From the human T2T-CHM13v2.0 reference genome, Homo sapiens: a DNA stretch of 64,000 bases. Positions 1,011 through 64,000 of the stretch are shown here, piece after piece. The notes under the pieces are model-generated. The model was not told where the DNA came from. It saw only the letters and a program-made list of their open reading frames with translations, and searched no databases. Both the position numbers and the translations under genes were made by a program. The DNA lies in assembly GCA_009914755.4 (NCBI GenBank), contig CP086569.2, forward strand, positions 31,040,001 to 31,104,000. Reading direction: 5' to 3'. Every line of letters begins with the position of its first letter. Position 1 is the first letter of the stretch.

Positions 1011-1310
<300 letters not shown>

Positions 1311-1880
1311 ATTTTTTAAATGAAAAAAAATTTCAAAGGTACTCTGCTTGGTACAATAATCAAATGTATAAACTGAGGAATAAAACATAACCATGAAACC
1401 TACTTATAAGTGCATATGGAAAATACAGAGGATAATTTTTTAAATAACATATTTTGAAAGCCTTAACTAGTAATTTGAAGAGTTGGCATTTGAAAGGCCA
1501 GTATGAATATACCTTCAAAGCAGCAACACAGGTTCCCCATGAGAAAAAGCAAACTCAGGGAAAATAAAACCACAAAGGTTCAATCTCTTCTGACCTTTGA
1601 AAGACACAGCACAGACAGTGGTCCTTAGGACGAAGAGCAGGAGACCCCTAATTCCGTCACCATGGCGATAGGGCATAAACACTGCTGGGTGAGGGCACAA
1701 TCCACATTGTGAGGTCCAACTGCTGCCAGGAAGACAGGAGTGCTTTTACATAGACCGAAAGGTCATTGAAGGCTCAGAGTTTTGTTTCAAGAACTGAATC
1801 CCAAGCCCACACGTTATTAGGCTGCGCTTCTTAAAACAAGTTATGAGATGGGAAAAAGGGCACCCACAAACATACGTATA
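1311..1880. other. Non-repetitive ~570 bp segment of the unit, with moderate GC and a few retained CpGs. Origin unknown; no coding or RNA-gene signal. The same segment recurs at an equivalent offset in every unit.
   Basis: It is complex, non-low-complexity sequence lying between the Alu and the AT-rich segment. It carries the recurring 61-aa and 71-aa minus-strand ORFs, which are interpreted as chance open frames. Confidence 0.8.
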
Positions 1881-3730
<1,850 letters not shown>

Positions 3731-5850
3731 ATTTTTTAAATGAAAAAAAATTTCAAAGGTACTCTGCTTGGTACAATAATCAAATGTATAAACTGAGGAA
3801 TAAAACATAACCATGAAACCTACTTATAAGTGCATATGGAAAATACAGAGGATAATTTTTTAAATCACATATTTTGAAAGCCTTAACTAGTAATTTGAAG
3901 AGTTGGCATTTGAAAGGCCAGTATGAATATACCTTCAAAGCAGCAACACAGGTTCCCCATGAGAAAAAGCAAACTCAGGGAAAATAAAACCACAAAGGTT
4001 CAATCTCTTCTGACCTTTGAAAGACACAGCACAGACAGTGGTCCTTAGGACGAAGAGCAGGAGACCCCTAATTCCGTCACCATGGCGATAGGGCATAAAC
4101 ACTGCTGGGTGAGGGCACAATCCACATTGTGAGGTCCAACTGCTGCCAGGAAGACAGGAGTGCTTTTACATAGACCGAAAGGTCATTGAAGGCTCAGAGT
4201 TTTGTTTCAAGAACTGAATCCCAAGCCCACACGTTATTAGGCTGCGCTTCTTAAAACAAGTTATGAGATGGGAAAAAGGGCACCCACAAACATACGTATA
4301 CATTATGTATATAATAATATACAGTATCATATATATAATATATATAACCTATGTATAATATTGTTTTACATCTTGCAACTTATATTATATATATTGTATA
4401 AAATATAATAATTGATAATATATAAGTTTTATATTTATACAATATGACATATAGTATATATTATAATTTATGACATATATAATATATGTTATATATCATA
4501 TATAGAATATATTATACGGTTAATATACGTATTAAATATAAATTATACATTATATGTATTATATATAATATATCTGCTATATATAATACCCATTATGCAT
4601 AATATATATATTATGTCTATGTTATGTATAGTATAAAACAACATATAATAATATATAATTGTATATATAAAATGCGACATATAATATATATTATATTTTA
4701 TGACATCTGTAATATATATTATATATTATATATAATACGTTGTATGTATAATACCTATATTAAATATATATTATATGACTATGTTATTAATTACATGTCA
4801 CATATGTTATATATTATATAGTTTACATAGAATATACCGGTTACATACAATATATACTACGTTACCTAAAATGTATAATTTATTACATGTAAAATAAAGA
4901 ATGCAATATATTATGTGTAATTTATAATATACAATATGTGGAATGTGATATATATAACATATAATATATGATATATGATATACAGTATATGATATATAAC
5001 ATACAATATATGATACCTAATATATGTGGTATACAATATATATTTTATGATATGTATTCTATATGTTTTATATTCTGTTATATATAACTATTTGAAATTA
5101 TATATAACTGTATAATATTTTATGTAAATATGTAATATAATATATATAACTATATAATATATTATATATAACTATATATTATGTTATATATACTTTTATA
5201 TCTTAATTTACATAAAATATCATAGTATAATATATATTATATTACTTCATATTACATAATATATATTACATATCACCCAATATAAGTAACATACATAATA
5301 TTATAATATACATTATATTAGGTTATATTAAACATCATATATATCATGTATCATATATTCTATAATATATATTATACATTATATAATATGCATGTTGTCT
5401 ATTATGTGATATATATAACTATATATATAATTATATTATTATACATATAACTAGATAAACATGTAATTCTACATATTTTCATTTATAATATATAGAATTA
5501 CATAATCATATATAATTATTTATATTCTATAAAAAATTATATCATTATATAAATTATAATATATAAAAATTATTATATGTACTACAAATATATATATTGT
5601 ATATCATATATGATATAGTACCTTTGTTATATATGATAATACATATAAATGTGTATTATGTTATCTATAATTATATAATTTCATATATAAGATGTATAAT
5701 ATTTATTATATATTATATATGTTATGTAATATATATAGTATATATAAGATGACACAGGATAAATATTATATACTATGACATATAAAATATATGAGGTTAT
5801 ATGTTACATATAAGGCATAGCACATAACATGTAATATATATCATCTATAA

Positions 5851-6150
<300 letters not shown>

Positions 6151-8246
6151 ATTTTTTAAATGAAAAAAAATTTCAAAGGTACTCTGCTTGGTACAATAAT
6201 CAAATGTATAAACTGAGGAATAAAACATAACCATGAAACCTACTTATAAGTGCATATGGAAAATACAGAGGATAATTTTTTAAATAACATATTTTGAAAG
6301 CCTTAACTAGTAATTTGAAGGGTTGGCATTTGAAAGGCCAGTATGAATATACCTTCAAAGCAGCAACACAGGTTCCCCATGAGAAAAAGCAAACTCAGGG
6401 AAAATAAAACCACAAAGGTTCAATCTCTTCTGACCTTTGAAAGACACAGCACAGACAGTGGTCCTTAGGACGAAGAGCAGGAGACCCCTAATTCCGTCAC
6501 CATGGCGATAGGGCATAAACACTGCTGGGTGAGGGCACAATCCACATTGTGAGGTCCAACTGCTGCCAGGAAGACAGGAGTGCTTTTACATAGACCGAAA
6601 GGTCATTGAAGGCTCAGAGTTTTGTTTCAAGAACTGAATCCCAAGCCCACACGTTATTAGGCTGCGCTTCTTAAAACAAGTTATGAGATGGGAAAAAGGG
6701 CACCCACAAACATACGTATACATTATGTATATAATAATATACAGTATCATAAATATAATATATATAACCTATGTATAATATTGTTTTACATCCTGCATCT
6801 TATATTATATATATTGTATAAAATATAATAATTGATAATATATAAGTTTTATATTTATACAATATGACATATAGTATATATTATAATTTATGACATATAT
6901 AATATATGTTATATATCATATATAGAATATATTATACGGTTAATATACGTATTAAATATAAATTATACATTATATGTATTATATATAATATATCTGCTAT
7001 ATATAATACCCATTATGCATAATATATATATTATGTCTATGTTATGTATAGTATAAAACAACATATAATAATATATAATTGTATATATAAAATGCGACAT
7101 ATAATATATATTATATTTTATGACATCTGTAATATATATTATATATTATATACAATACGTTGTATGTATAATACCTATATTAAATATATATTATATGACT
7201 ATGTTATTAATTACATGTCACATATGTTATATATTATATAGTTTACATAGAATATACCGGTTACATACAATATATACTATGTTACCTATAATGTATAATT
7301 TATTACATGTAAAATAAAGAATGCAATATATTATGTGTAATTTATAATATACAATATGTGGAATGTGATATATATAACATATAATATATGATATATGATA
7401 TACAGTATATGATATATAACATACAATATATGATACCTAATATATATGGTATACAATATATATTTTATGATATGTATTCTATATGTTTTATATTCTGTTA
7501 TATATAACTATTTGAAATTATATATAACTGTATAATATTTTATGTAAATATGTAATATAATATAAATAACTATATAATATATTATATATAAATACATATT
7601 ATGTTATATATACTTTTATAACATAATTTACATAAAATATCATAATATAATATATATTATATTATTTCATATTACATAATATATATTACATATCACCCAA
7701 TATAAGTAACATACATAATATTATAATATAGATTATATTATGTTATATTAAATATCATATATATCATGTATCATATAATCTATAATATATATTATACATT
7801 ATATAATATGTATGTTGTCTATTATGTGATATATATAACTATATATATAATTATATTATTATACATATAACTAGATAAACATGTAATTCTACATATTTTC
7901 ATTTATAATGTATAGAATTATATAATCATATATAATTATTTATATTCTATAAAAAATTATATCATTATAAAAATTATAATATATAAAAATTATAATATGT
8001 ACTACAAATATATATATTATATATCATATATGATATAGTACCTTTGTTATATATCATAATACATATAAATGTGTATTATGTTATCTATAATTATATAATT
8101 TCATATATTAATGTATAATATTTATTATATATTATATATGTTATGTAATATATATGGTATATATAAGATGACACAGGATAAATATTATATACTATGACAT
8201 ATAAAATATATGAGGTTATATGTTACATATAAGGCATAGCACATAA

Positions 8247-8569
<323 letters not shown>

Positions 8570-10664
8570 ATTTTTTAAATGAAAAAAAATTTAAAAGGTA
8601 CTCTGCTTGGTACAATAATCAAATGTATAAACTGAGGAATAAAACATAACCATGAAACCTACTTATAACTGCATATGGAAAATACAGAGGATAATTTTTT
8701 AAATAACATATTTTGAAAGCCTTAACTAGTAATTTGAAGAGTTGGCATTTGAAAGGCCAGTATGAATATACCTTCAAAGCAGCAACACAGGTTCCCCATG
8801 AGAAAAAGCAAACTCAGGGAAAATAAAACCACAAAGGTTCAATCTCTTCTGACCTTTGAAAGACACAGCACAGACAGTGGCCCTTAGGACGAAGAGCAGG
8901 AGACCCCTAATTCCGTCACCATGGCGATAGGGCATAAACACTGCTGGGTGAGGGCACAATCCACATTGTGAGGTCCAACTGCTGCCAGGAAGACAGGAGT
9001 GCTTTTACATAGACCGAAAGGTCATTGAAGGCTCAGAGTTTTGTTTCAAGAACTGAATCCCAAGCCCACACGTCATTAGGCTGCGCTTCTTAAAACAAGT
9101 TATGAGATGGGAAAAAGGGCACCCACAAACATACGTATACATTATGTATATAATAATATACAGTATCATATATATAATATATATAACCTATGTATAATAT
9201 TGTTTTACATCCTGCATCTTATATTATATATATTGTGTAAAATATAATAATTGATAATATATAAGTTTTATATTTATACAATAAGACATATAGTATATAT
9301 TATAATTTATGACATATATAATATATGTTATATATCATATATAGAATATATTATACGGTTAACATACGTATTAAATATAAATTATACATTATATGTATTA
9401 TATATAATATATCTGCTATATATAATACCCATTATGCATAATATATATATTATGTCTATGTTATGTATAGTATAAAACAACATATAATAATATATAATTG
9501 TATATATAAAATGCGACATATAATATATATTATATTTTATGACATCTGTAATATATATTATATATTATATATAATACGTTGTACGTATAATACCTATATT
9601 AAATATATATTATATGACTATGTTATTAATTACATGTCACATATGTTATATATTATATATTTTACATAGAATATACCGGTTACATACAATATATACTATG
9701 TTACCTATAATGTATAATATATTACATTTAAAATAAAGAATGCAATATATTATGTATAATTTATAATATACAATATGTGGAATGTGATATATATAACATA
9801 TAATATATGATATATGATATACAGTATATGATATATAACATACAATATATGATACATAATATATATGGTATACAATATATATTTTATGATATGTATTCTA
9901 TATGTTTCATATTCTGTTATATATAACTATTTGAAATTAAATATAACTGTATAATATTTTATGTAAATATGTAATATAATATATAAATATGTAATATATT
10001 ATATATAACTATATATTATGTTATATATACTTTTATAACATAATTTACATAAAATATCATAATATAATATATATTATATTATTTCATATTACATAATATA
10101 TATTATATATCACCCAATATAAGTAACATACATAATATTATATTATACATTATTTTATGTTATATTAAATATCATATATATCATGTATCATATATTCTAT
10201 AATATATATTATACATTATATAATATGTATGTTGTCTATTATGTGATATTTATAACTATATATATAATTATATTATTATACATATAACTAGATAAACATG
10301 TAATTCTACATATTTTCATTTATAATATATAGAATTATATAATCATATATAATTATTTATATTCTATAAAAAATTATAGCTTTATATAAATTATAATATA
10401 TAAAAATTATAATATGTACTACAAATATATATATTGTATATCATATATGATATAGTACCTTTGTTATATATGATAATACATATAAATGTGTATTATGTTA
10501 TCTATAATTATATAATTTCATATATAAGATGTATAATATTTATTATATATTATATATGTTATGTAATATATATAGTATATATAAGATGACACAGGATAAA
10601 TATTATATACTATGACATATAAAATATATGAGGTTATATGTTACATATAAGGCATAGCACATAA

Positions 10665-10987
<323 letters not shown>

Positions 10988-13084
10988 ATTTTTTAAATGA
11001 AAAAAAATTTCAAAGGTACTCTGCTTGGTACAATAATCAAATGTATAAACTGAGGAATAAAACATAACCATGAAACCTACTTATAACTGCATATGGAAAA
11101 TACAGAGGATAATTTTTTAAATCACATATTTTGAAAGCCTTAACTAGTAATTTGAAGAGTTGGCATTTGAAAGGCCAGTATGAATATACCTTCAAAGCAG
11201 CAACACAGGTTCCCCATGAGAAAAAGCAAACTCAGGGAAAATAAAACCACAAAGGTTCAATCTCTTCTGACCTTTGAAAGACACAGCACAGACAGTGGTC
11301 CTTAGGACGAAGAGCAGGAGACCCCTAATTCCGTCACCATGGCGATAGGGCATAAACACTGCTGGGTGAGGGCACAATCCACATTGTGAGGTCCAACTGC
11401 TGCCAGGAAGACAGGAGTGCTTTTACATAGACCGAAAGGTCATTGAAGGCTCAGAGTTTTGTTTCAAGAACTGAATCCCAAGCCCACACGTTATTAGGCT
11501 GCGCTTCTTAAAACAAGTTATGAGATGGGAAAAAGGGCACCCACAAACATACGTATACATTATGTATATAATAATATACAGTATCATATATATAATATAT
11601 ATAACCTATGTATAATATTGTTTTACATCCTGCATCTTATATTATATATATTGTGTAAAATATAATAATTGATAATATATAAGTTTTATATTTATACCAC
11701 ATGACATATAGTATATATTATAATTTATGACATATATAATATATGTTATATATCATATATAGAATATATTATACGGTTAACATACGTATTAAATATAAAT
11801 TATACATTATATGTATTATATATAATATATCTGCTATATATAATACCCATTATGCATAATATATATATTATGTCTATGTTATGTATAGTATAAAACAACA
11901 TATAATAATATATAATTGTATATATAAAATGCGACATATAATATATATTATATTTTATGACATCTGTAATATATATTATATATTATATATAATACGTTGT
12001 ATGTATAATACCTATATTAAATATATATTATATGACTATGTTATTAATTACATGTCACATATGTTATATATTATATAGTTTACATAGAATATACCGGTTA
12101 CATACAATATATACTATGTTACCTATAATGTATAATTTATTACATGTAAAATAATGAATGCAATATATTATGTGTAATTTATAATATACAATATGTGGAA
12201 TGTGATATATATAACATATAATATATGATATATGATATACAGTATATGATATATAACATACAATATATGATACCTAATATATATGGTATACAATATATAT
12301 TTTATGATATGTATTCTATATGTTTTATATTCTGTTATATATAACTATTTGAAATTATATATAACTGTATAATATTTTATGTAAATATGTAATATAATAT
12401 ATATAACTATATAATATATTATATATAACTATATATTATGTTATATATACTTTTATAACTTAATTTACATAAAATATCATAGTATAATATATATTATATT
12501 ACTTCATATTACATAATATATATTACATATCACCCAATATAAGTAACATACATAATATTATAATATACATTATATTATGTTATATTAAATATCATATATA
12601 TCATGTATCATATATTCTATAATATATATTATACATTATATAATATGCATGTTGTCTATTATGTGATATATATAACTATATATATAATTATATTATTATA
12701 CATATATCTAGATAAACATGTAATTCTACATATTTTCATTTATAATATATAGAATTACATAATCATATATAATTATTTATATTCTATAAAAAATTATATC
12801 ATTATATAAATTATAATATATAAAAATTATAATATGTACTACAAATATATATATTATATATCATATATGATATAGTACCTTTGTTATATATGATAATACA
12901 TATAAATGTGTATTATGTTATCTATAATTATATAATTTCATATATAAGATGTATAATATTTATTATATATTATATATGTTATGTAATATATATAGTATAT
13001 ATAAGATGACACAGGATAAATATTATATACTATGACATATAAAATATATGAGGTTATATGTTAGATATAAGGCATAGCACATAA

Positions 13085-13407
<323 letters not shown>

Positions 13408-15502
13408 ATTTTTTAAATGAAAAAAAATTTCAAAGGTACTCTGCTTGGTACAATAATCAAATGTATAAACTGAGGAATAAAACATAACCATGAAACCTAC
13501 TTATAAGTGCATATGGAAAATACAGAGGATAATTTTTTAAATAACATATTTTGAAAGCCTTAACTAGTAATTTGAAGAGTTGGCATTTGAAAGGCCAGTA
13601 TGAATATACCTTCAAAGCAGCAACACAGGTTCCCCATGAGAAAAAGCAAACTCAGGGAAAATAAAACCACAAAGGTTCAATCTCTTCTGACCTTTGAAAG
13701 ACACAGCACAGACAGTGGTCCTTAGGACGAAGAGCAGGAGACCCCTAATTCCGTCACCATGGCGATAGGGCATAAACACTGCTGGGTGAGGGCACAATCC
13801 ACATTGTGAGGTCCAACTGCTGCCAGGAAGACAGGAGTGCTTTTACATAGACCGAAAGGTCATTGAAGGCTCAGAGTTTTGTTTCAAGAACTGAATCCCA
13901 AGCCCACACGTTATTAGGCTGCGCTTCTTAAAACAAGTTATGAGATGGGAAAAAGGGCACCCACAAACATACGTATACATTATGTATATAATAATATACA
14001 GTATCATATATATAATATATATAACCTATGTATAATATTGTTTTACATCCTGCATCTTATATTATATATATTGTATAAAATATAATAATTGATAATATAT
14101 AAGTTTTATATTTATACAATATGACATATAGTATATATTATAATTTATGACATATATAATATATGTTATATATCATATATAGAATATATTATACGGTTAA
14201 CATACGTATTAAATATAAATTATACATTATATGTATTATATATAATATATCTGCTATATATAATACCCATTATGCATAATATATATATTATGTCTATGTT
14301 ATGTATAGTATAAAACAACATATAATAATATATAATTGTATATATAAAATGCGACATATAATATATATTATATTTTATGACATCTGTAATATATATTATA
14401 TATTATATATAATACGTTGTATGTATAATACCTATATTAAATATATATTATATGACTATGTTATTAATTACATGTCACATATGTTATATATTATATATTT
14501 TACATAGAATATACCGGTTACATACAATATATACTATGTTACCTATAATGTATAATATATTACATGTAAAATAAAGAATGCAATATATTATGTATAATTT
14601 ATAATATACCATATGTGGAATGTGATATATATAACATATAATATATGATATATGATATACAGTATATGATATATAACATACAATATATGATACATAATAT
14701 ATATGGTATACAATATATATTTTATGATATGTATTCTATATGTTTTATATTCTGTTATATATAACTATTTGAAATTATATATAACTGTATAATATTTTAT
14801 GTAAATATGTAATATAATATATAAATATGTAATATATTATATATAACTATATATTATGTTATATATACTTTTATAACATAATTTACATAAAATATCATAA
14901 TATAATATATATTATATTATTTCATATTACATAATATATATTATATATCACCCAATATAAGTAACATACATAATATTATAATATAGATTATATTATGTTA
15001 TATTAAATATCATATATATCATGTATCATATATTCTATAATATATATTATACATTATATAATATGTATGTTGTCTATTATGTGATATATATAACTATATA
15101 TATAATTATATTATTATACATATATCTAGATAAACATGTAATTCTACATATTTTCATTTATAATATATAGAATTATATAATCATATATAATTATTTATAT
15201 TGTATAAAAAATTATAGCTTTATATAAATTATAATATATAAAAATTATAATATGTACTACAAATATATATATTGTATATCATATATGATATAGTACCTTT
15301 GTTATATATGATAATACATATAAATGTGTATTATGTTATCTATAATTATATAATTTCATATATAAGATGTATAATATTTATTATATATTATATATGTTAT
15401 GTAATATATATAGTATATATAAGATGACACAGGATAAATATTATATACTATGACATATAAAATATATGAGGTTATATGTTACATATAAGGCATAGCACAT
15501 AA

Positions 15503-15825
<323 letters not shown>

Positions 15826-17938
15826 ATTTTTTAAATGAAAAAAAATTTCAAAGGTACTCTGCTTGGTACAATAATCAAATGTATAAACTGAGGAATAAAA
15901 CATAACCATGAAACCTACTTATAACTGCATATGGAAAATACAGAGGAAAATTTTTTAAATCACATATTTTGAAAGCCTTAACTAGTAATTTGAAGAGTTG
16001 GCATTTGAAAGGCCAGTATGAATATACCTTCAAAGCAGCAACACAGGTTCCCCATGAGAAAAAGCAAACACAGGGAAAATAAAAACACAAAGGTTCAATC
16101 TCTTCTGACCTTTGAAAGACACAGCACAGACAGTGGTCCTTAGGACGAAGAGCAGGAGACCCCTAATTCCGTCACCATGGCGATAGGGCATAAACATTGC
16201 TGGGTGAGGGCACAATCCACATTGTGAGGTCCAACTGCTGCCAGGAAGACAGGAGTGCTTTTACATAGACCGAAAGGTCATTGAAGGCTCAGAGTTTTGT
16301 TTCAAGAACTGAATCCCAAGCCCACACGTTATTAGGCTGCGCTTCTTAAAACAAGTTATGAGATGGGAAAAAGGGCATCCACAAACATACGTATACATTA
16401 TGTATATAATAATATACAGTGTCATATATATAATATATATAACCTATGTATAATATTGTTTTACATCCTTCATCTTCTGTTATATATATTGTATAAAATA
16501 TAATAATTGATAATATATAAGTTTTATAATTATACAATATGACATATAGTATATATTATAATTTATGACATATATAATATATGTTATATATCATATATAG
16601 AATATATTATACGGTTAATATACGTATTAAATATAAATTATACATTATATATATTATATATAATATATCTGTTATATATAATACCCATTATGCATAATAT
16701 ATATATTATGTCTATGTTACATATAGTATAAAACAACATATAATAATATATAATTGTATATATAAAATGCGACATATAATATATATTATATTTTATAACA
16801 TATGCAATATATATTATATATAATACGTTGTATGTATAATACCTATATTAAATATATATTATATGACTATGTTATTAATTACATGTCACATGTGTTATAT
16901 ATTATATATTTTACATAGAATATACCGGTTACATACAATATATACTATGTTACCTATAATGTATAATTTATTACATGTAAAATAAAGAATGCAATATATT
17001 ATGTAAAATTTATAATATACATTATGTGGAATGTGATATATATAACATATAATATATGATATATGATATACAGTATATGATATATAACATACAATATATG
17101 ATTCCTAATATATATGGTATACAATATATATTTTATGATATGTATTCTATATGTTTTATATTCTGTTATATATAACTATTTGAAATTATATATAACTGTA
17201 TAATATTTTATGTAAATATGTAATATAATATATATAACTATATAATATATTATATATAACTATATATTATGTTATATATACTTTTATAACATAATTTACA
17301 TAAAATATCATAATATAATATATATTATATTATTTCATATTACATAATATATATTACATATCACCCAATATAACTAACATACATAATATTATAATATAGA
17401 TTATATTATGTTATATGAAATATCATATATATCATGTATCATATATTCTATAATATATATTACACATTATATAATATGTATGTTGTCTATTATGTGATAT
17501 ATATAACTCTATATATAATTATATTATTATACATATAACTAGATAAACATGTAATTCTACATATTTTCATTTATAATATGTAGAATTATATAATCATATA
17601 TAATTATTTATATTCTATAAAAAATTTTATCATTATATAAATTATAATATATAAAAATTATAATATGTACTACAAATATATATATTATATATCATATATG
17701 ATATAGTACCTTTGTTATATATCATAATACATATAAATGTGTATTATGTTATCTATAATTATATAATTTCATATATAAGATGTATAATATGTATCATATA
17801 TTATATATGTTATGTAATACATATAGTATATATAAGATGACACAGGATAAATATTATATACTATGACATATAAAATATATGAGGTTATATGTTACATATA
17901 AGGCATAGCACATAACATGTAATATATACCATATATAA

Positions 17939-18238
17939 TTTTTTTTTAGACAGAATCTTGTCCTGTTGCACAGGGTGGGGTACAATGGCGCCATCTTTGC
18001 TCACTGCAACTTCTGCCTCACGGGTCCAAGCGATTGTCCTCCCTCAGCCTCCCAGGTAGCTGGGACCACACCACACTGGGACTACACCAGCTGCCACCAT
18101 GCCTAGCTAATTTTTTGGATTTTTAGTAGTGACAGCGTTTCACTGTATTGGCCAGGATGGTCTTGATCTCTTCACCTTGTGATCCCCTTGCCTTGGCCTC
18201 CAAATTTGCTGGGATTACAGGCCTGAGCCAAGATCCAT
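17939..18238 (-). mobile_element. Alu copy 8 (B, early variant with 'gggaccacaccacactgg').
   Basis: Periodic copy. Confidence 0.95.
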
Positions 18239-20331
18239 ATTTTTTAAATGAAAAAAAATTTCAAAGGTACTCTGCTTGGTACAATAATCAAATGTATAAA
18301 CTGAGGAATAAAACATAACCATGAAACCTACTTATAACTGCATATGGAAAATACAGAGGATAATTTTTTAAATAACATATTTTGAAAGCCTTAACTAGTA
18401 ATTTGAAGAGTTGGCATTTGAAAGGCCAGTATGAATATACCTTCAAAGCAGCAACACAGGTTCCCCATGAGAAAAAGCAAACACAGGGAAAATAAAAACA
18501 CAAAGGTTCAATCTCTTCTGACCTTTGAAAGACACAGCAAAGACAGTGGTCCTTAGGACGAAGAGCAGGAGACCCCTAATTCCGTCACCATGGCGATAGG
18601 GTATAAACATTGCTGGGTGAGGGCACAATCCACATTGTGAGGTCCAACTGCTGCCAGGAAGACAGGAGTGCTTTTACATAGACCGAAAGGTCATTGAAGG
18701 CTCAGAGTTTTGTTTCAAGAACTGAATCCCAAGCCCACACGTTATTAGGCTGCGCTTCTTAAAACAAGTTATGAGATGGGAAAAAGGGCACCCACAAACA
18801 TACGTATACATTATGTATATAATAATATACAGTATCATATATATAATATATATAACCTATGTATAATATTGTTTTACATCCTGCATCTTATGTTATATAT
18901 ATTGTATAAAATATAATAATTGTTAATATATAAGTTTTATATTTATAAAATATGACATATAGTATATATTATAATTTATGACATATATAATATATGTTAT
19001 ATATCATATATACAATATATTATACGGTTAATATACGTATTAAATATAAATTATACATTATATATATTATATATAATATATCTGTTATATATAATACCCA
19101 TTATACATAATATATATATTATGTCTATGTTATATATAGTATAAAACAACATATAATAATATATAATTGTATATATAAAATGCAACATATAATATATGTT
19201 ATATTTTATAACATATGTAATATATATTATATATTATATATAATACGTTGTATGCATAATACCTATATTAAATATATATTATATGACTATGTTATTAATT
19301 ACATGTCACATGTGTTATATATTATATATTTTACATAGAATATACCGGTTACATACAATATATACTATGTTACCTATAATGTATAATTGATTACATGTAA
19401 AATAAAGAATGCAATATATTATGTATAATTTATAATATACAATATGTGGAATGTGATATATATAACATATAATATATGATATATGATATACAGTATATGA
19501 TATATAACATACAATATATGATTCCTAATATATATGGTATACAATATATATTTTATGATATGTATTCTATATGTTTTATATTCTGTTATATATAACTATT
19601 TGAAATTATATATAACTGTATAATATTTTATGTAAATATGTAATATAATATATAACTATATAATATATTATATATAACTATATATTATGTTATATATACT
19701 TTTATAACATAATTTACATAAAATATCATAACATAATATATATTATATTATTTCATATTACATAATATATATTACATATCACCCAATATAACTAACATAC
19801 AAAATATTATAATATAGATTATATTGTTATATTAAATATCATATATATCATGTGTCATATATTCTATAATATATATTACACATTATATAATATGTATGTT
19901 GTCTATTATGTGATATATATAACTCTATATATAATTTTATTTTTATACATATAACTAGATAAACATGTAATTCTACATATTTTCATTTATAATATGTAGA
20001 ATTATATAATCATATATAATTATTTATATTCTATAAAAAATTTTATCATTATATAAATTATAATATATAAAAATTATAATATGTACTACAAATATATATA
20101 TTATATATCATATATGATATAGTACCTTTGTTATATATCATAATACATATAAATGTGTATTATGTTATCTATAATTATATAATTTCATATATAAGATGTA
20201 TAATATGTATCATATATTATATATGTTATGTAATATACATAGTATATATAAGATGACACAGGATAAATATTATATACTATGACATATAAAATATATCAGG
20301 TTATATGTTACATATAAGGCATAGCACATAA

Positions 20332-20654
<323 letters not shown>

Positions 20655-22773
20655 ATTTTGTAAATGAAAAAAAATTTCAAAGGTACTCTGCTTGGTACAA
20701 TAATCAAATGTATAAACTGAGGAATAAAACATAACCATGAGACCTACTTATAACTGCATATGGAAAATACAGAGGATAATTTTTTAAAAAACATATTTTG
20801 AAAGCCTTAACTAGTAATTTGAAGAGTTGGCATTTGAAAGGCCAGTATGAATATACCTTCAAAGCAGCAACACAGGTTCCCCATGAGAAAAAGCAAACTC
20901 AGGGAAAATAAAACCACAAAGGTTCAATCTCTTCTGACCTTTGAAAGACACAGCACAGACAGTGGTCCTTAGGACGAAGAGCAGGAGACCCGTAATTCCG
21001 TCACCATGGCGATAGGGCATAAACATTGCTGGGTGAGGGCACAATCCACATTGAGAGGTCCAACTGCTGCCAGGAAGACAGGAGTGCTTTTACATAGACC
21101 GAAAGGTCATTGTAGGCTCAGAGTTTTGTTTCAAGAACTGAATCCCAAGCCCACACGTTATTAGGCTGCGCTTCTTAAAACAAGTTATGAGATGGGAAAA
21201 AGGGCACCCACAAACATACGTATACATTATGTATATAATAATATACAGTATCATATATATAATATATATAACCTATGTATAATATTGTTTTACATCCTGC
21301 ATCTTATATTATATATATTGTATAAAATATAAAATTCATAATACATAACGTTTATATTTATACAATATGACATATAGTATGTATTATAATTTATGACATA
21401 TATAATATATGTTATATATCATATATAGAATATATTATACGGTTAATATACGTATTAAATATAAATTATACATTCTATATATTATATATAATATATCTGT
21501 TATATATAATACCCATTATGCATAATATATATATTATGTCTATGTTATATATAGTATAAAACAACGTATAATAATATATAATTGTATATAAAAAATGCGA
21601 CATATAATATATATTATATTTTATAACATATGTAATATATATTATATATTATATATAATACGTTGTATGTATAATACCTATATTAAATATATATTATAGG
21701 ACTATGTTATTAATTACATATCACATGTGTTATATATTATATATTTTACATAGAATATACCGGTTACATACAATATATACTATGTTACCTATAATGTATA
21801 ATTTATTACATGTAAAATAAAGAATTCAACATATTATGTATAATTTATAATATACAATATGTGGAATGTGATATATATAACATATAATATATGATATATG
21901 ATATACAGTATATGATATATAACATACAATATATGATTCCTAATATATATGGTATACAATATATATTTTATGATATGTATTCTATATGTTTTATATTCTG
22001 TTATATATAACTATTTGAAATTATATATAACTGTATAATATTTTATGTAAATATGTAATATAATATATATAACTATATAATATATTATATATAACTATAT
22101 ATTATGTTATATATACTTTTATAACATAATTTACATAAAATATCATAATATAATATATATTATATTATTTCATATTACATAATATATATTACATATCACC
22201 CAATATAACTAACATACATAATATTATAATATAGATTATATTATGTTATATGAAATATCATATATATCATGTATCATATATTCTATAATATATATTACAC
22301 ATTATATAATATGCATGTTGTCTATTATGTGATATATATAACTCTATATATAATTATATTATTATACATATAACTAGATAAACATGTAATTCTACATATT
22401 TTCATTTATAATATGTAGAATTATATAATCATATATAATTATTTATATTCTATAAAAAATTTTATCATTATATAAATTATAATATATAAAAATTATAATA
22501 TGTACTACAAATATATATATTATATATCATATATGATATAGTACCTTTGTTATATATCATAATACATATAAATGTGTATTATGTTATCTATAATTATATA
22601 ATTTCATATATAAGATGTATAATATGTATCATATATTATATATGTTATGTAATACATATAGTATATATAAGATGACACAGGATAAATATTATATACTATG
22701 ACATATAAAATATATGAGGTTATATGTTACATATAAGGCATAGCACATAACATGTAATATATACCATATATAA

Positions 22774-23073
22774 TTTTTTTTTAGACAGAATCTTGTCCTG
22801 TTGCACAGGGTGGGGTACAATGGCGCCATCTTTGCTCACTGCAACTTCTGCCTCACGGGTCCAAGCGATTGTCCTCCCTCAGCCTCCCAGGTAGCTGGGA
22901 CCACACCACACTGGGACTACACCAGCTGCCACCATGCCTAGCTAATTTTTTGGATTTTTAGTAGTGACAGCGTTTCACTGTATTGGCCAGGATGGTCTTG
23001 ATCTCTTCACCTTGTGATCCCCTTGCCTTGGCCTCCAAATTTGCTGGGATTACAGGCCTGAGCCAAGATCCAT
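22774..23073 (-). mobile_element. Alu copy 10 (B, early variant).
   Basis: Periodic copy. Confidence 0.95.
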
Positions 23074-25163
23074 ATTTTTTAAATGAAAAAAAATTTCAAA
23101 GGTACTCTGCTTGGTACAATAATCAAATGTATAAACTGAGGAATAAAACATAACCATGAAACCTACTTATAACTGCATATGGAAAATACAGAGGATAATT
23201 TTTTAAATAACATATTTTGAAAGCCTTAACTAGTAATTTGAAGAGTTGGCATTTGAAAGGCCAGTATGAATATACCTTCAAAGCAGCAACACAGGTTCCC
23301 CATGAGAAAAAGCAAACACAGGGAAAATAAAAACACAAAGGTTCAATCTCTTCTGACCTTTGAAAGACACAGCAAAGACAGTGGTCCTTAGGACGAAGAG
23401 CAGGAGACCCCTAATTCCGTCACCATGGCGATAGGGCATAAACATTGCTGGGTGAGGGCACAATCCACATTGTGAGGTCCAACTGCTGCCAGGAAGACAG
23501 GAGTGCTTTTACATAGACCGAAAGGTCATTGAAGGCTCAGAGTTTTGTTTCAAGAACTGAATCCCAAGCCCACACGTTATTAGGCTGCGCTTCTTTAAAC
23601 AAGTTATGAGATGGGAAAAAGGGCACCCACAAACATACGTATACATTATGTATATAATAATTTACAGTATCATGTATATAATATATATAACCTATGTATA
23701 ATATTGTTTTACATCCTGCATCTTATGTTATATATATTGTATAAAATATAATAATTGATAATATATAAGTTTTATATTTATACAATATGACATATAGTAT
23801 ATATTATAATTTATGACATATATAATATATGTTATATATCATATATAGAATATATTATACGGTTAATATACGTATTAAATATAAATTATACATTATATAT
23901 ATTATATATAATATATCTGATATATATAATACCCATTATGCATAATATATATATTATGTCTATGTTATATATAGTATAAAACAACATATAATAATATATA
24001 ACTGTATATATAAAATGCGACATATAATATATATTATAATTTATAACATATGTAATATATATTATATATAATACGTTGTATGTATAATACCTATATTAAA
24101 TATATATTATATGACTATGTTATTAATTACATGTCACATGTGTTATATATTATATATTTTACATAGAATATACCGGTTACATACAATATATACTATGTTA
24201 CCTAAAATGTATAATTTATTACATGTAAAATAAAGAATGCAATATATTATGTATAATTTATAATATACCATATGTGGCATGTGATATATATAACATATAA
24301 TATATGATATATGATATACAGTATATGATATATAACATACAATATATGATTCCTAATATATATGGTATACAATATATATTTTATGATATGTATTCTATAT
24401 GTTTTATATTCTGTTATATATAACTATTTGAAATTATATATAACTCTATAATATTTTATGTAAATATGTAATATAATATATATAACTATATAATATATTA
24501 TATATAACTATATATTATGTTATATATACTTTTATAACATAATTTACATAAAATATCATAATATAATATATGTTATATTATTCCATATTACATAATATAT
24601 ATTACATATCACCCAATATAACTAACATACATAATATTATAATATAGATTATATTATGTTATATTAAATATCATATATATCATGTATCATATATTCTATA
24701 ATATATATTACACATTATATAATATGTATGTTGTCTATTATGTGATATATATAACTATATATATAATTATATTTTTATACATATAACTAGATAAACATGT
24801 AATTCTACATATTTTCATTTATAATATGTAGAATTATATAATCATATATAATTATTTATATTCTATAAAAAATTTTATCATTATATAAATTATAATATAT
24901 AAAAATTATAATATGCACTACAAATATATATATTATATATCATATATGCTATAGTACCTTTGTTATATATCATAATACATATAAATGTGTATTATGTTAT
25001 CTATAATTATATAATTTCATATATAAGTTGTATAATATGTATCATATATTATATATGTTATGTAATATATATAGTATATATAAGATGACACAGGATAAAT
25101 ATTATATACTATGACATATAAAATATATGAGGTTATATGTTACATATAAGGCATAGCACATAA

Positions 25164-25486
<323 letters not shown>

Positions 25487-27599
25487 ATTTTTTAAATGAA
25501 AAAAAATTTCAAAGGTACTCTGCTTGGTACAATAATCAAATGTATAAACTGAGGAATAAAACATAACCATGAAACCTACTTATAACTGCATATGGAAAAT
25601 ACAGAGGATAATTTTTTAAATAACATATTTTGAAAGCCTTAACTAGTAATTTGAAGAGCTGGAATTTGAAAGGCCAGTATGAATATACCTTCAAAGCAGC
25701 AACACAGGTTCCCCATGAGAAAAAGCAAACACAGGGCAAATAAAAACACAAAGGTTCAATCTCTTCTGACCTTTGAAAGACACAGCACAGACAGTGGTCC
25801 TTAGGACGAAGAGCAGGAGACCCCTAATTCCGTCACCATGGCGATAGGGCATAAACATTGCTGGGTGAGGGCACAATCCACATTGTGAGGTCCAACTGCT
25901 GCCAGGAAGACAGGAGTGCTTTTACATAGACCGAAAGGTCATTGAAGGCTCAGAGTTTTGTTTCAAGAACTGAATCCCAAGCCCACACGTTATTAGGCTG
26001 CGCTTCTTTAAACAAGTTATGAGATGGGAAAAAGGGCACCCACAAACATACGTATACATTATGTATATAATAATATACAGTATCATGTATATAATATATA
26101 TAACCTATGTATAATATTGTTTTACATCCTGCATCTTATGTTATATATATTGTATAAAATATAATAATTGATAATATATAAGTTTTATATTTATACAATA
26201 TGACATATAGTATATATTATAATTTATGACATATATAATATATGTTATATATCATATATAGAATATATTATACGGTTAATATACGTATTAAATATAAATT
26301 ATACATTATATATATTATATATAATATATCTGTTATATATAATACCCATTATGCATAATATATATATTATGTCTATGTTATATATAGTATAAAACAACAT
26401 ATAATAATATATAACTGTATATATAAAATGCGACATATAATATATATTATATTTTATAACATATGTAATATATATTATATATAATACGTTGTATGTATAA
26501 TACCTATATTAAATATATATTATATGACTATGTTATTAATTACATGTCACATGTGTTATATATTATATATTTTACATAGAATATACCGGTTACATACAAT
26601 ATATACTATGTTACCTATAATGTATAATTTATTACATGTAAAATAAAGAATGCAATATATTATGTATAATTTATAATATACAATATGTGGAATGTGATAT
26701 ATATAACATATAATATATGATATATGATATCCAGTATATGATATATAACATACAATATATGATTCCTAATATATATGGTATACAATATATATTTTATGAT
26801 ATGTATTCTATATGTTTTATATTCTGTTATATATAACTATTTGAAATTATATATAACTCTATAATATTTTATGTAAATATGTAATATAATATATATAACT
26901 ATATAATATATTATATATAACTATATATTATGTTATATATACTTTTATAACATAATTTACATAACATATCATAATATAATATATATTATATTATTTCATA
27001 TTACATAATATATATTACATATCACCCAATATAACTAACATACATAATATTATAATATAGATTATATTGTGTTATATTAAATATCATATATATCATGTAT
27101 CATATATTCTATAATATATATTACACATTATATAATATGTATGTTGTCTATTATGTGATATATATAACTATATATATAATTATATTTTTATACATATAAC
27201 TAGATAAACATGTAATTCTACATATTTTCATTTATAATATGTAGAATTATATAATCATATATAATTATTTATATTCTATAAAAAATTTTATCATTCTATA
27301 AATTATAATATATAAAAATTATAATATGTACTTCAAATATATATATTATATATCATATATGCTATAGTTCCTTTGTTATATATCATAATACATATAAATG
27401 TGTATTATGTTATCTATAATTATATAATTTCATATATAAGTTGAATAATATGTATCATATATTATATATGTTATGTAATATATATAGTATATATAAGATG
27501 ACACAGGATAAATATTATATACTATGACATATAAAATATATGAGGTTATATGTTACATATAAGGCATAGCACATAACATGTAATATATATCATATAGAA

Positions 27600-27899
27600 T
27601 TTTTTTTTAGACAGAATCTTGTCCTGTTGCACAGGGTGGGGTCCAATGGCGCCATCTTTGCTCACTGCAACTTCTGCCTCACGGGTCCAAGCGATTGTCC
27701 TCCCTCAGCCTCCCAGGTAGCTGGGACTACACCACACTGGGACTACACCAGCTGCCACCATGCCTAGCTAATTTTTTGGATTTTTAGTAGTGACAGCGTT
27801 TCACTGTATTGGCCAGGATGGTCTTGATCTCTTCACCTTGTGATCCCCTTGCCTTGGCCTCCAAATTTGCTGGGATTACAGGCCTGAGCCAAGATCCAT
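27600..27899 (-). mobile_element. Alu copy 12 (B, variant X).
   Basis: Periodic copy. Confidence 0.95.
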
Positions 27900-30012
27900 A
27901 TTTTTTAAATGAAAAACAATTTCAAAGGTACTCTGCTTGGTACAATAATCAAATGTATAAACTGAGGAATAAAACATAACCATGAAACCTACTTATAACT
28001 GCATATGGAAAATACAGAGGATAATTTTTTAAATAACATATTTTGAAAGCCTTAACTAGTAATTTGAAGAGTTGGCATTTGAAAGGCCAGTATGAATATA
28101 CCTTGAAAGCAGCAACACAGGTTCCCCGTGAGAAAAAGCAAACACAGGGAAAATAAAAACACAAAGGTTCAATCTCTTCTGACCTTTGAAAGACACAGCA
28201 CAGACAGTGGTCCTTAGGACGAAGAGCAGGAGACCCCTAATTCCGTCACCATGGCGATAGGGCATAAACATTGCTGGGTGAGGGCACAATCCACATTGTG
28301 AGGTCCAACTGCTGCCAGGAAGACAGGAGTGCTTTTACATAGACCGAAAGGTCATTGAAGGCTCAGAGTTTTGTTTCAGGAACTGAATCCCAAGCCCACA
28401 CGTTATTAGGCTGCGCTTCTTAAAACAAGTTATGAGATGGGAAAAAGGGCACCCACAAACATACGTATACATTATGTATATAATAATATACAGTATCATA
28501 TATATAATATATATAACCTATGTATAATATTGTTTTACATCCTGCATCTTATGTTATATATATTGTATAAAATATAATAATTGATAATATATAAGTTTTA
28601 TATTTATACAATATGACATATAGTATATATTATAATTTATGACATATATAATATATGTTATATGTCATATATAGAATATATTATACGGTTAATATACGTA
28701 TTAAATATAAATTATACATTATATATATTATATATAATATATCTGTTATATATAATACCCATTATGCATAATATATATATTATGTCTATGTTATATATAG
28801 TATAAAACAACATATAATAATATATAATTGTATATATAAAATGCGACATATAATATATATTATATTTTATAACATATGTAATATATATTATATATAATAC
28901 GTTGTATGTATAATACCTATATTAAATATATATTATATGACTATGTTATTAATTACATGTCACATGTGTTATATATTATATATTTTACATAGAATATACC
29001 GGTTACATACAATATATACTATGTTACCTATAATGTATAATTTATTACATGTAAAATAAAGAATGCAATATATTATGTAAAATTTATAATATACCATATG
29101 TGGAATGTGATATATATAACATATAATATATGATATATGATATACAGTATATGATATATAACATACAATATATGATTCCTAATATATATGGTATACAATA
29201 TATATTTTATGATATGTATTCTATATGTTTTATATTCTGTTATATATAACTATTTGAAATTATATATAACTGTATAATATTTTATGTAAATATGAAATAT
29301 AATATATATAACTATATAATATATTATATATAACTATATATTATGTTATATATACTTTTATAACATAATTTACATAAAATATCATAATATAATATATATT
29401 ATATTATTTCATATTACATAATATATATTACATATCACCCAATATAACTAACATACATAATATTATAATATAGATTATATTGTGTTATATTAAATATCAT
29501 ATATATCATGTATCATATATTCTATAATATATATTACACATTATATATTATGTATGTTGTCTATTATGTGATATATATAACTATATATATAATTATATTT
29601 TTATACATATAACTAGATAAACATGTAATTCTACATATTTTCATTTATAATATGTAGAATTATATAATCATATATAATTATTTATATTCTATAAAAAATT
29701 TTATCATTCTATAAATTATAATATATAAAAATTATAATATGTACTACAAATATATATATTATATATCATATATGCTCTAGTACCTTTGTTATATATCATA
29801 ATACATATAAATGTGTATTATGTTATCTATAATTATATAATTTCATATATAAGTTGTATAATATGTATCATATATTATATATGTTATGTAATATATATAG
29901 TATATATAAGATGACACAGGATAAATATTATATACTATGACATATAAAATATATGAGGTTATATGTTACATATAAGGCATAGCACATAACATGTAATATA
30001 TATCATATATAA

Positions 30013-30312
30013 TTTTTTTTTAGACAGAATCTTGTCCTGTTGCACAGGGTGGGGTACAATGGCGCCATCTTTGCTCACTGCAACTTCTGCCTCACGGGTC
30101 CAAGCGATTGTCCTCACTCAGCCTCCCAGGTAGCTGGGACTACACCACACTGGGACTACACCAGCTGCCACCATGCCTAGCTAATTTTTTGGATTTTTAG
30201 TAATGACAGCGTTTCACTGTATTGGCCAGGATGGTCTTGATCTCTTCACCTTGTGATCCCCTTGCCTTGGCCTCCAAATTTGCTGGGATTACAGGCCTGA
30301 GCCAAGATCCAT
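30013..30312 (-). mobile_element. Alu copy 13 (B, variant Y with 'cctcactcagcc' and 'agtaatgacagc').
   Basis: Periodic copy. Confidence 0.95.
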
Positions 30313-32432
30313 ATTTTTTAAATGAAAAAAAATTTCAAAGGTACTCTGCTTGGTACAATAATCAAATGTATAAACTGAGGAATAAAACATAACCATGAAA
30401 CCTACTTATAACTGCATATGGAAAATACAGAGGATAATTTTTTAAATAACATATTTTGAAAGCCTTAACTAGTAATTTGAAGAGTTGGCATTTGAAAGGC
30501 CAGTATGAATATACCTTCAAAGCAGCAACACAGGTTCCCCATGAGAAAAAGCAAACACAGGGAAAATAAAAACACAAAGGTTCAATCTCTTCTGACCTTT
30601 GAAAGACACAGCACAGACAGTGGTCCTTAGGACGAAGAGCAGGAGACCCCTAATTCCGTCACCATGGCGATAGGGCATAAACATTGCTGGGTGAGGGCAC
30701 AATCCACATTGTGAGGTCCAACTGCTGCCAGGAAGACAGGAGTGCTTTTACATAGACCGAAAGGTCATTGAAGGCTCAGAGTTTTGTTTCAAGAACTGAA
30801 TCCCAAGCCCACACGTTATTAGGCTGCGCTTCTTAAAACAAGTTATGAGATGGGAAAAAGGGCACCCACAAACATACGTATACATTATGTATATAATAAT
30901 ATACAGTGTCATATATATAATATATATAACCTATGTATAATATTGTTTTACATCCTGCATCTTATGTTATATATATTGTATAAAATATAATAATTGATAA
31001 TATATAAGTTTTATATTTATACAATATGACATATAGTATATATTATAATTTATGACATATATAATATATGTTATATGTCATATATAGAATATATTATACG
31101 GTTAATATACGTATTAAATATAAATTATACATTATATATATTATATATAATATATCTGTTATATATAATACCCATTATGCATAATATATATATTATGTCT
31201 ATGTTATATATAGTATAAAACAACATATAATAATATATAATTGTATATATTAAATGCGACATATAATATATATTATATTTTATAACATATGTAATATATA
31301 TTATATATTATATATAATACGTTGTATGTATAATACCTATATTAAATATATATTATATGACTATGTTATTAATTACATGTCGCATGTGTTATATATTATA
31401 TATTTTACATAGAATATACCGGTTACATACAATATATACTATGTTACCTATAATGTATAATTTATTACATGTAAAATAAAGAATGCAATATATTATGTAT
31501 AATTTATAATATACAATATGTGGAATGTGATATATATAACATATAATATATGATATATGATATACAGTATATGATATATAACATACAATATATGATTCCT
31601 AATATATATGGTATACAATATATATTTTATGATATGTATTCTATATGTTTTATATTCTGTTATATATAACTATTTGAAATTATATATAACTGTATAATAT
31701 TTTATGTAAATATGTAATATAATATATATAACTATATAATATATTATATATAACTATATATTATGTTATATATACTTTTATAACATAATTTACATAACAT
31801 ATCATAATATAATATATATTATATTATTTCATATTACATAATATATATTACATATCACCCAATATAACTAACATACATAATATTATAATATAGATTATAT
31901 TGTGTTATATTAAATATCATATATATCATGTATCATATATTCTATAATATATATTACACATTATATAATATGTATGTTGTCTATTATGTGATATATATAA
32001 CTCTATATATAATTATATTTTTATACATATAACTAGATAAACATGTAATTCTACATATTTTCATTTATAATATGTAGAATTATATAATCATATATAATTA
32101 TTTATATTCTATAAAAAATTTTATCATTCTATCAATTATAATATATAAAAATTATAATATGTACTACAAATATATATATTATATATCATATATGATATAG
32201 TACCTTTGTTATATATCATAATACATATAAATGTGTATTATGTTATCTATAATTATATAATTTCATATATAAGATGTATAATATGTATCATATATTATAT
32301 ATGTTATGTAATATATATAGTATATATAAGATGACACAGGATAAATATTATATACTATGACACATAAAATATATGAGGTTATATGTTACATATAAGGCAT
32401 AGCACATAACATGTAATATATATCATATATAA

Positions 32433-34828: not shown

Positions 34829-35151
<323 letters not shown>

Positions 35152-39668: not shown

Positions 39669-39991
<323 letters not shown>

Positions 39992-59003: not shown

Positions 59004-59326
<323 letters not shown>

Positions 59327-63831: not shown

Positions 63832-64000
<169 letters not shown>

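What the first reader, a model, noticed from the sequence alone, without database searches (positions are those of the whole stretch)
15850..16100. Sharp subfamily A to B junction inside a single hybrid unit
Units 1-6 (and the Alu of unit 7 at 15526-15825) carry A-type diagnostics: 'agacagagtcttg', 'ggtggagtac', 'acatctgcc', 'aaactcaggg', 'aaaaccacaaagg' and 'aaacactgctgg'. From 16061 onward, in the same unit and in every later unit, the B-type states appear instead: 'aaacacaggg', 'aaaaacacaaagg' and 'aaacattgctgg', with the matching Alu and AT-rich states from the next unit on. The switch therefore lies within about 150 bp, between ~15910 and ~16060, inside unit 7's unique segment. This is the footprint of an unequal crossover or gene-conversion breakpoint joining two homogenised sub-arrays.
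Basis: seen in the sequence. Interest (0 to 1): 0.55.

Follow-up and report, generated by a model that had tools for sequence, protein, structure and literature searches.

The report
Variant-block boundary in human DYZ2 satellite
The window is an array of the human 2.4-kb DYZ2/HSat1B satellite, and the finding is a real but ordinary boundary where a locally amplified variant block meets near-consensus repeats inside one repeat unit.

Summary
The window holds 26 full 2.41-2.42 kb units plus two partial ones. Units 1-6 form an A group and units 10-26 a B group: 57 differences per unit between groups, 22-29 within. Unit 7 carries A states at 15542, 15566 and 15598, and B states from 16070 on.

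Fixed sites place the switch in 15599-16069. One derived base, c at 15961, is shared only with A units 2 and 5.

Unit 9 has A states at 20899, 20914 and 21308. Unit 25 has one at 59586. Unit 7 has an A-block-derived base at 17526.
- **Unit 7's marker combination is not unique.** The six-marker pattern AAA+BBB is the second commonest type in 37 outside copies (6 of 37). The AAA Alu states are ancestral.
- **B is mostly not a derived type.** B states are the family majority. Units 7-10 are heterogeneous mosaics, not a homogenised sub-array.

Unit length, composition and CpG density match published Yq12 DYZ2. In that satellite, whole-unit gains and losses and gene conversion have been seen directly in pedigrees. 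This is an ordinary instance of known satellite turnover, of low interest.

The parts
1..15525 (.). A block: a partial unit (1-1010) plus units 1-6. This is a locally derived variant of the repeat, 45-56 changes from the outside-majority consensus.
   Evidence: The A states at columns 671, 1125, 1146, 1195, 1276, 1855, 2061, 2272, 2276 and 2414 are absent from outside copies.
15526..15825 (-). Alu-derived part of unit 7, with A-type (ancestral) states at 15542 g, 15566 a and 15598 a.
   Evidence: The bases at 15542 and 15566 equal that consensus.
15599..16069 (.). Strict switch interval, between the last A-fixed site and the first B-fixed site in unit 7.
   Evidence: No A/B-fixed difference lies inside the interval. 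There is no indel, inverted repeat or PRDM9 13-mer there.
15962..16069 (.). Most likely switch interval. It runs from just after the A-subset marker c at 15961 to just before the first non-A base at 16070.
   Evidence: c at column 435 occurs only in units 2, 5 and 7; 0 of 44 outside copies carry it.
16070..17938 (.). Rest of unit 7, which is non-A. It carries the family-majority states plus derived states shared with B units (16421 g, 7-bp deletion after 16807, 17006 a, 17509 c). It also carries one A-block-derived base, 17526 a.
17939..25186 (.). Units 8-10, a heterogeneous transition zone. Unit 9 carries A states at 20899, 20914, 21308 and 22361, and has 20 private changes.
25187..64000 (.). 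B block: units 11-26 plus a partial unit. It is close to the family consensus (units 13-22 differ by 18-22 changes) and has its own internal duplications. A single A state occurs at 59586 in unit 25.

Best explanation
The window is a stretch of the human DYZ2/HSat1B satellite. Each unit is an AT-rich simple repeat, an old 5'-truncated AluY fragment, and a GC-richer segment annotated HSATI. The source is most likely Yq12.

Units 1-6 are a locally amplified, derived variant block (A). The other units are near the family consensus (B). The finding is the right-hand edge of the A block.

Inside unit 7, ancestry changes from A-block-related sequence to sequence related to the neighbouring B units. 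The change most likely falls in 15962-16069 and certainly within 15599-16069. It was produced by homologous exchange between repeat units: unequal sister-chromatid exchange or a gene-conversion tract. This is the normal turnover process that expands, contracts and homogenises this satellite.

- **Shown:** the block structure, the position of the switch, and derived markers on both sides of it.
- **Inferred:** the mechanism, and the 108-bp resolution, which rests on a single base.
For: **Identity**
- Unit lengths are 2,420 bp (11 units) and 2,413 bp (6 units). GC is 24.4%, there is one CpG per 148 bp, and ACATACG sits at the junction of the unique and AT-rich parts in every unit.
- Published Yq12 DYZ2 values are 2,413/2,420 bp, 24% GC, one CpG per 150 bp and the same heptamer.
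- The three-part anatomy and the ~20%-diverged AluY fragment match. The measured Alu identity is 78%.
- The same DNA turns up in 20 unrelated 'bacterial' assemblies and 24 metagenome stretches. Rhie et al. describe this for HSat1B contamination.

**Block structure**
- Supported.
- A is the derived type. It lies 45-56 changes from the outside-majority consensus, against 18-22 for units 13-22. Ten of its marker states are absent outside.

**Chimeric ancestry of unit 7**
- The left 544 columns equal unit 5 apart from 2 private changes. They share the derived c at 15961 with units 2 and 5 only.
- My estimate of a chance coincidence is about 3 x 8 / (544 x 3) = 0.015.
- The right part shares four locally derived states with B units.

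**Mechanism precedent**
- De novo gains or losses of 2,416-4,839 bp, each one or two whole DYZ2 units, occur about once per Y transmission. In addition, 29% of Yq12 de novo changes match non-orthologous copies.
- 17% of Yq12 events in another pedigree set are consistent with gene conversion.
- Sister-chromatid exchanges are seen in Yq12.
Against: - The narrow interval and the 'A' identity of unit 7's left part rest on one derived base (15961 c). The three Alu markers are ancestral states found in 16-31% of outside copies.
- Unit 7 is not a two-parent hybrid. The best fit uses unit 5 [columns 0-435], units 14/16 [436 to about 1476] and unit 9 [1477 to the end].
- Unit 7 carries an A-block-derived base at 17526, well to the right of the junction.
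- The chromosome of origin (Y versus an acrocentric short arm) was not established.
- No read-level data were available to exclude a false join in the assembly.
Confidence: 0.8

Rival explanations
1. Unit 7 is not a local recombinant. It is a surviving member of an older 'AAA+BBB' lineage of the repeat that happens to sit beside the A block. Its resemblance to A in the Alu is shared ancestral state, and the A block's edge lies at or near the unit 6/7 boundary.
For: - AAA+BBB is the second commonest six-marker haplotype outside (6 of 37).
- The intermediates BAA+BBB (2 copies) and BBA+BBB (2 copies) form a stepwise series towards BBB+BBB.
- The A states at 15542 and 15566 equal the AluY consensus.
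- Unit 7's left part differs from outside copy L010 by only 3 bases. Its AT-rich part is closest to the outside near-consensus copies L001 and L036 (9 differences in 1413 columns).
Against: - 15961 c is shared with A units 2 and 5 and with none of 44 outside copies. Independent recurrence has a probability of roughly 0.015.
- Four derived states tie the right part to local B units.
- Even under this reading, the A block has an edge made by the same exchange processes.
Confidence: 0.12
2. The junction is an assembly artefact: a false join between reads from two different DYZ2 arrays within a stretch where they are identical.
For: Satellite arrays are error-prone to assemble. A and B share 471 bp without any fixed difference at the junction.
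Against: - A and B differ by about 2.3% over each 2.4-kb unit. Long reads spanning several units would not be ambiguous.
- The junction is followed by four distinct units with private changes, rather than an abrupt jump into the homogeneous B core.
- This could not be tested directly here.
Confidence: 0.03
3. The junction marks an old exchange between different arrays or chromosomes (for example, another Yq12 block or an acrocentric HSat1B array), not an intra-array event.
For: - HSat1B exists on the Y and on acrocentric short arms. Yq12 carries multi-megabase iterative duplications.
- The A block has many states not seen in the outside sample.
Against: - The A block's Alu and proximal unique part are identical to a common outside type. 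A-to-consensus divergence is only about 2%, within the >98% identity typical of Yq12.
- Outside loci L021, L032 and L036 show units at only 81-91% identity to the window consensus, lying next to 93-99% units. Where those copies lie in the genome is unknown.
Confidence: 0.05

Closest known systems
DYZ2 / HSat1B satellite of human Yq12 (also on acrocentric short arms)
   Same: - Unit length of 2,413/2,420 bp.
- The three-part unit: AT-rich repeat, 5'-truncated and ~20%-diverged AluY fragment, and GC-richer HSATI segment.
- 24% GC and one CpG per ~150 bp.
- The ACATACG heptamer at the HSATI/AT-rich junction.
   Different: - Nothing structural differs.
- In this window the 2,413 versus 2,420 bp difference comes from a 7-bp 'tatatat' indel in the AT-rich part, not from ACATACG.
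- Chromosomal position was not established.
Local homogenisation blocks in satellite arrays made by unequal exchange and gene conversion, as described for Yq12 DYZ1/DYZ2 and for centromeric arrays
   Same: - Neighbouring units are more alike than distant ones.
- More divergent units sit at block edges.
- There are recent multi-unit duplications. Here a 7.36-kb stretch is repeated 7 units away at 99.9% identity.
   Different: This is simply one resolved boundary. The exchange point is pinned to 108-471 bp inside one unit, and no new property was seen.
De novo whole-unit DYZ2 structural variants and interlocus gene conversion seen in pedigrees (Porubsky et al. 2025, PMC12240836)
   Same: The same repeat, and the same classes of event that would create such a junction.
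   Different: Those are events observed in real time. Here only an old footprint is seen, and the event type is inferred.

Membership tests
DYZ2 / HSat1B | Tandem unit of about 2.4 kb, with modal lengths of 2,413 and 2,420 bp | tested here: met
   The 26 units measure 2,420 bp (11), 2,413 bp (6) and 2,409-2,419 bp (9).
DYZ2 / HSat1B | Unit made of an AT-rich simple repeat, a 5'-truncated old AluY fragment (~20% diverged) and a GC-richer HSATI segment | tested here: met
   The Alu lies at 15526-15825 on the minus strand. The unique part runs to about 16390, followed by about 1.55 kb of AT-rich repeat.
DYZ2 / HSat1B | 24% GC, about one CpG per 150 bp, and ACATACG at the HSATI/AT-rich junction | tested here: met
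   24.4% GC, one CpG per 148 bp, and ACATACG at the junction in all 26 units, against the published values.
DYZ2 / HSat1B | Sequence identity to the published DYZ2 consensus or to the T2T-Y annotation | not testable with these tools
   No human reference or DYZ2 consensus is held. Indirect support comes from the same sequence occurring as contaminant contigs in many unrelated bacterial assemblies, as reported for HSat1B.
DYZ2 / HSat1B | Location in Yq12, in blocks alternating with DYZ1 | not testable with these tools
   The window lies wholly inside one array and no DYZ1 is in view. An acrocentric origin is not excluded.
Recombinant (chimeric) repeat unit at a block boundary | Two flanking blocks that are distinct and spatially contiguous | tested here: met
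   Differences per unit are 57 between A and B, against 22-29 within each. There is a run of 147 A states followed by B states.
Recombinant (chimeric) repeat unit at a block boundary | Derived (not merely ancestral) markers of each block on either side of one breakpoint in one unit | tested here: met
   On the left there is one derived marker, 15961 c. On the right there are four: 16421 g, the 7-bp deletion, 17006 a and 17509 c. The left-hand support is thin, resting on a single site.
Recombinant (chimeric) repeat unit at a block boundary | A single switch, with no reversion to the first block's markers | tested here: not met
   Unit 7 has the A-block-derived a at 17526 and fits three or four donor segments best. 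Unit 9 has A states at 20899, 20914, 21308 and 22361.
Recombinant (chimeric) repeat unit at a block boundary | Distinguishing crossover from gene conversion | not testable with these tools
   This needs the reciprocal product, population haplotypes or pedigree data.

The most novel reading that the evidence does not exclude
The A block is an uncatalogued DYZ2 sub-variant. Ten of its marker states are absent from the outside copies that cover those sites (5 to 38 per site). Under this reading its edge in unit 7 records an exchange between different arrays or chromosomes. It could then serve as a stable landmark for tracing Yq12 or acrocentric rearrangements across haplogroups.
Probability: 0.05. 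Interest if true: 0.3.

Novelty: already known. Interest (0 to 1): 0.12.

Why it matters
It matters little on its own. It is a clean, base-resolved example of how a human heterochromatic satellite is patched together by exchange between repeat units, which recent complete Y assemblies and pedigree studies already document.

Its practical value is as a marker. The A-private bases and the chimeric unit 7 could be used to follow this particular block across Y haplotypes.

The analysis also carries a caution. Markers that look 'diagnostic' for local subfamilies can be old polymorphisms shared across the whole repeat family. A hybrid-looking unit is therefore not in itself proof of a local crossover.

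Tried and rejected
- **Viral contig scan.** A scan of viral contigs for a conserved 25-mer of the unit found nothing.
- **Published DYZ2 primers or probes.** I looked in the literature for sequences to test against the window and found none in the papers held.
- **Rfam.** A scan of unit 7 gave only a sub-threshold mir-1268 match inside the Alu (30 bits against a gathering score of 83). It is of no consequence.
- **Junction features.** There is no PRDM9 13-mer anywhere in the window. There is no inverted repeat or indel at the junction. Nothing marks the site as a special hotspot.
- **A-type AT-rich states outside the window.** I first read outside copies L036 (unit at 989) and L032 as carrying them. 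I rejected this because those units differ from the consensus at about 180-200 AT-rich columns, so they are misaligned or highly diverged. Site calls were then restricted to fragments within 4% of the consensus.
- **Unit 9 as a local conversion tract.** I considered that its A patch came from the A block. This is weakened because its six-marker haplotype BBB+AAB occurs in 5 of 37 outside copies.
- **Single-breakpoint fit.** The best one-break mosaic for unit 7 is not A|B. It is unit 14 | unit 9 at about column 1476. This shows that the A|B switch is only one of several ancestry changes in that unit.

Full report
**What is in the window**

The 64-kb window is one tandem array. A conserved 17-mer recurs 26 times at spacings of 2,409-2,420 bp. 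I cut 26 full units starting at the poly-T end of the Alu: 1011, 3431... 15526 (unit 7) ... 61444. Partial units remain at 1-1010 and 63861-64000.

Each unit has three parts:
- a minus-strand Alu fragment (15526-15825 in unit 7);
- about 565 bp of unique, GC-richer sequence;
- about 1.55 kb of AT-rich simple repeat.

**Identity**

| Feature | Window | Published Yq12 DYZ2 (Hallast et al., 10.1101/2022.12.01.518658) |
|---|---|---|
| Unit length | 2,420 bp (11 units), 2,413 bp (6 units) | 2,413 bp modal, 2,420 bp consensus |
| GC content | 24.4% | 24% |
| CpG density | 1 per 148 bp | 1 per 150 bp |
| ACATACG at the HSATI/AT-rich junction | in every unit | present |
| Architecture | AT-rich repeat, Alu, unique part | AT-rich repeat, 5'-truncated Alu, HSATI |

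- Rhie et al. (10.1101/2022.12.01.518724) describe an AluY fragment about 20% diverged.
- A conserved 25-mer of the unit occurs in 20 contigs of unrelated 'bacterial' assemblies and in 24 metagenome stretches. Rhie et al. report this contamination pattern for HSat1B.
- I could not test chromosomal position. Yq12 is most likely, and an acrocentric array is not excluded.

**Checking the observation**

- The unit alignment has 251 variable columns, 113 of them informative.
- Whole-unit distances give two groups. A is units 1-6 and B is units 10-26. There are 57 differences per unit between them, 29 within A and 22 within B.
- Nineteen sites are strictly fixed between the groups and five are nearly fixed.
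- Unit 7 is A at 15542, 15566 and 15598, and B from 16070 on. Along the array, 147 consecutive A states are followed almost only by B states.

No fixed site lies between 15598 and 16070. The strict interval is therefore 15599-16069.

The base c at 15961 (column 435) occurs only in A units 2 and 5 and in unit 7.

- unit 9 has A states at 20899, 20914, 21308 and 22361;
- unit 25 has one at 59586;
- unit 7 has 'A' states at 17408, 17526 and 17635.

**Polarising the markers with outside copies**

I added 49 outside fragments (L001-L044) to the alignment. Site calls were limited to fragments within 4% of the outside-majority consensus. This gave three results.

1. *B states are simply the family majority at nearly all sites.* A is the derived type. 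The A states at columns 671, 1125, 1146, 1195, 1276, 1855, 2061, 2272, 2276 and 2414 are absent outside. A units lie 45-56 changes from the outside consensus, units 7-12 lie 29-38, and units 13-22 lie 18-22. The 'A' states that units 7-10 keep at columns 1889 and 2116 are the majority state. There it is the B core that carries private derived bases.

2. *The proximal markers are old polymorphisms.* The six-marker haplotypes outside (columns 16, 40, 72, 544, 559, 671), omitting three copies with a non-A, non-B state at one or more markers:

| Haplotype | Copies (of 37) |
|---|---|
| BBBBBB | 16 |
| AAABBB | 6 |
| BBBAAB | 5 |
| BAABBB | 2 |
| BBABBB | 2 |
| BBBABB | 2 |
| AAAAAB | 1 |

So unit 7's combination (AAABBB) and unit 9's (BBBAAB) are both common elsewhere. 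The series AAA, BAA, BBA, BBB, together with agreement of the A states at 15542 and 15566 with the AluY consensus, says AAA is ancestral.

3. *Unit 7 still has derived markers on both sides of the switch*.
   - Left: 15961 c, seen in 0 of 44 outside copies and shared with units 2 and 5.
   - Right, shared with B units and rare or absent outside: 16421 g, a 7-bp deletion after 16807, 17006 a and 17509 c.
   - The left 544 columns of unit 7 equal unit 5 apart from two private changes.
   - I estimate the chance that one of unit 7's three non-generic bases in that segment coincides with one of the 8 A-block polymorphisms at about 0.015 (inference).

Unit 7 is therefore a genuine local chimera. 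The left-hand evidence is a single base.

**Unit 7 is more than a two-parent hybrid**

A copying-model fit gives 27, 19, 13 and 9 mismatches for 0, 1, 2 and 3 breakpoints. The best three-segment path is:
- unit 5 [columns 0-435];
- units 14/16 [436 to about 1476];
- unit 9 [1477 to the end].

Its AT-rich part is closer to the outside near-consensus copies L001 and L036 (9 differences in 1413 columns) than to any B unit. It also carries the A-block-derived a at 17526, as does unit 9.

Units 7-10 form a heterogeneous transition zone between the A block and the homogeneous B core. Unit 9 alone has 20 private changes. This matches the published observation that divergent units collect at the edges of homogenised stretches.

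**Context within the window and elsewhere**

Other exchange footprints are plentiful.
- 26469-33825 is repeated in register at 43401-50757, seven units away, with 6 mismatches in 7,357 bp.
- Unit 18 is a clean mosaic: 15 mismatches to its best single donor against 1 to a three-segment path.
- Outside loci L036, L032 and L021 hold neighbouring units that are 93-99% and 81-91% identical to the window consensus. Those are far sharper junctions than the A/B step of about 2.3%.
- Nothing marks the junction as a special site. There is no indel, no inverted repeat and no PRDM9 motif.

**Mechanism**

The mechanism is inferred from established behaviour of this satellite.
- De novo gains and losses of 2,416-4,839 bp, each one or two whole DYZ2 units, occur about once per Y transmission. 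In addition, 29% of Yq12 de novo base changes match non-orthologous copies, which is read as interlocus gene conversion (PMC12240836).
- A larger data set assigns 17% of Yq12 events to gene conversion (PMC13252187).
- Sister-chromatid exchanges and patterns of unequal exchange are reported for Yq12.

The junction is most simply the edge of a block amplified by such events. Its exchange point lies in the 108-471 bp stretch where A-type and non-A units are identical. Whether the event was a crossover or a conversion tract cannot be decided from one haplotype.

**Verdict**

There is a real ancestry switch, but most 'A' markers on its left are ancestral states common elsewhere, and the B side is not homogenised at the junction. 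The event type is open. This is an ordinary instance of a known process in a known satellite, so novelty is 'already known' and interest is low.

Noticed in passing
window 26469-33825 and 43401-50757: A 7,357-bp stretch is repeated in register seven units (16,932 bp) downstream with only 6 mismatches. Units 12 and 19 are identical, and units 13 and 20 differ by 1 base. This is a recent multi-unit duplication inside the B block.
   Followed up: yes
window 43400-43481 (unit 18): Unit 18 is a clean mosaic. It is like units 13/17 up to alignment column 1282 and like unit 11 from column 1289 (15 mismatches to the best single donor, 1 to the mosaic). This is the left edge of the duplication above.
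   Followed up: partly
alignment columns 1282-1288; in unit 7 just after window 16807: The 2,413 versus 2,420 bp unit lengths here come from a 7-bp 'tatatat' indel in the AT-rich part (units 7, 10-12, 19, 23, 24, 26). They do not come from the ACATACG heptamer named in the literature, which every unit has. None of 13 outside copies had the deletion.
   Followed up: partly
window 20355-22773 (unit 9): This is the most diverged unit, with 20 private substitutions. It carries the 'BBB+AAB' marker haplotype that is common in outside copies, and it shares its distal AT-rich part with unit 7.
   Followed up: partly
window 30013-42111 (units 13-17): Units alternate in a two-unit pattern. Units 13, 15 and 17 differ from one another by 6-9 changes, and units 14 and 16 by 7. 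Neighbouring units differ by about 19-24.
   Followed up: no
L006 5897-6920 (NZ_HF570958.1, Nostocoides japonicum T1-X7, 5.16-Mb scaffold): About 1 kb of this human satellite (97.8-100% identical to the window consensus) lies inside a large bacterial scaffold; the 8-kb locus also holds a 500-N run. Nineteen other bacterial assemblies hold short contigs of it. This is human contamination in public genomes.
   Followed up: partly
L036 216-5693; L032 1-4122; L021 1-13601: These outside contigs hold adjacent repeat units that are 93-99% and 81-91% identical to the window consensus. They look like array edges or diverged arrays, with much sharper subfamily junctions than the one studied.
   Followed up: no
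window 15647-15676: The Alu fragment carries an internal direct duplication, CTGGGACTACACCA, at a spacing of 16 bp. It is present as an insertion relative to the AluY consensus. A sub-threshold Rfam mir-1268 match (30 bits) overlaps it at 15630-15696 on the minus strand.
   Followed up: partly
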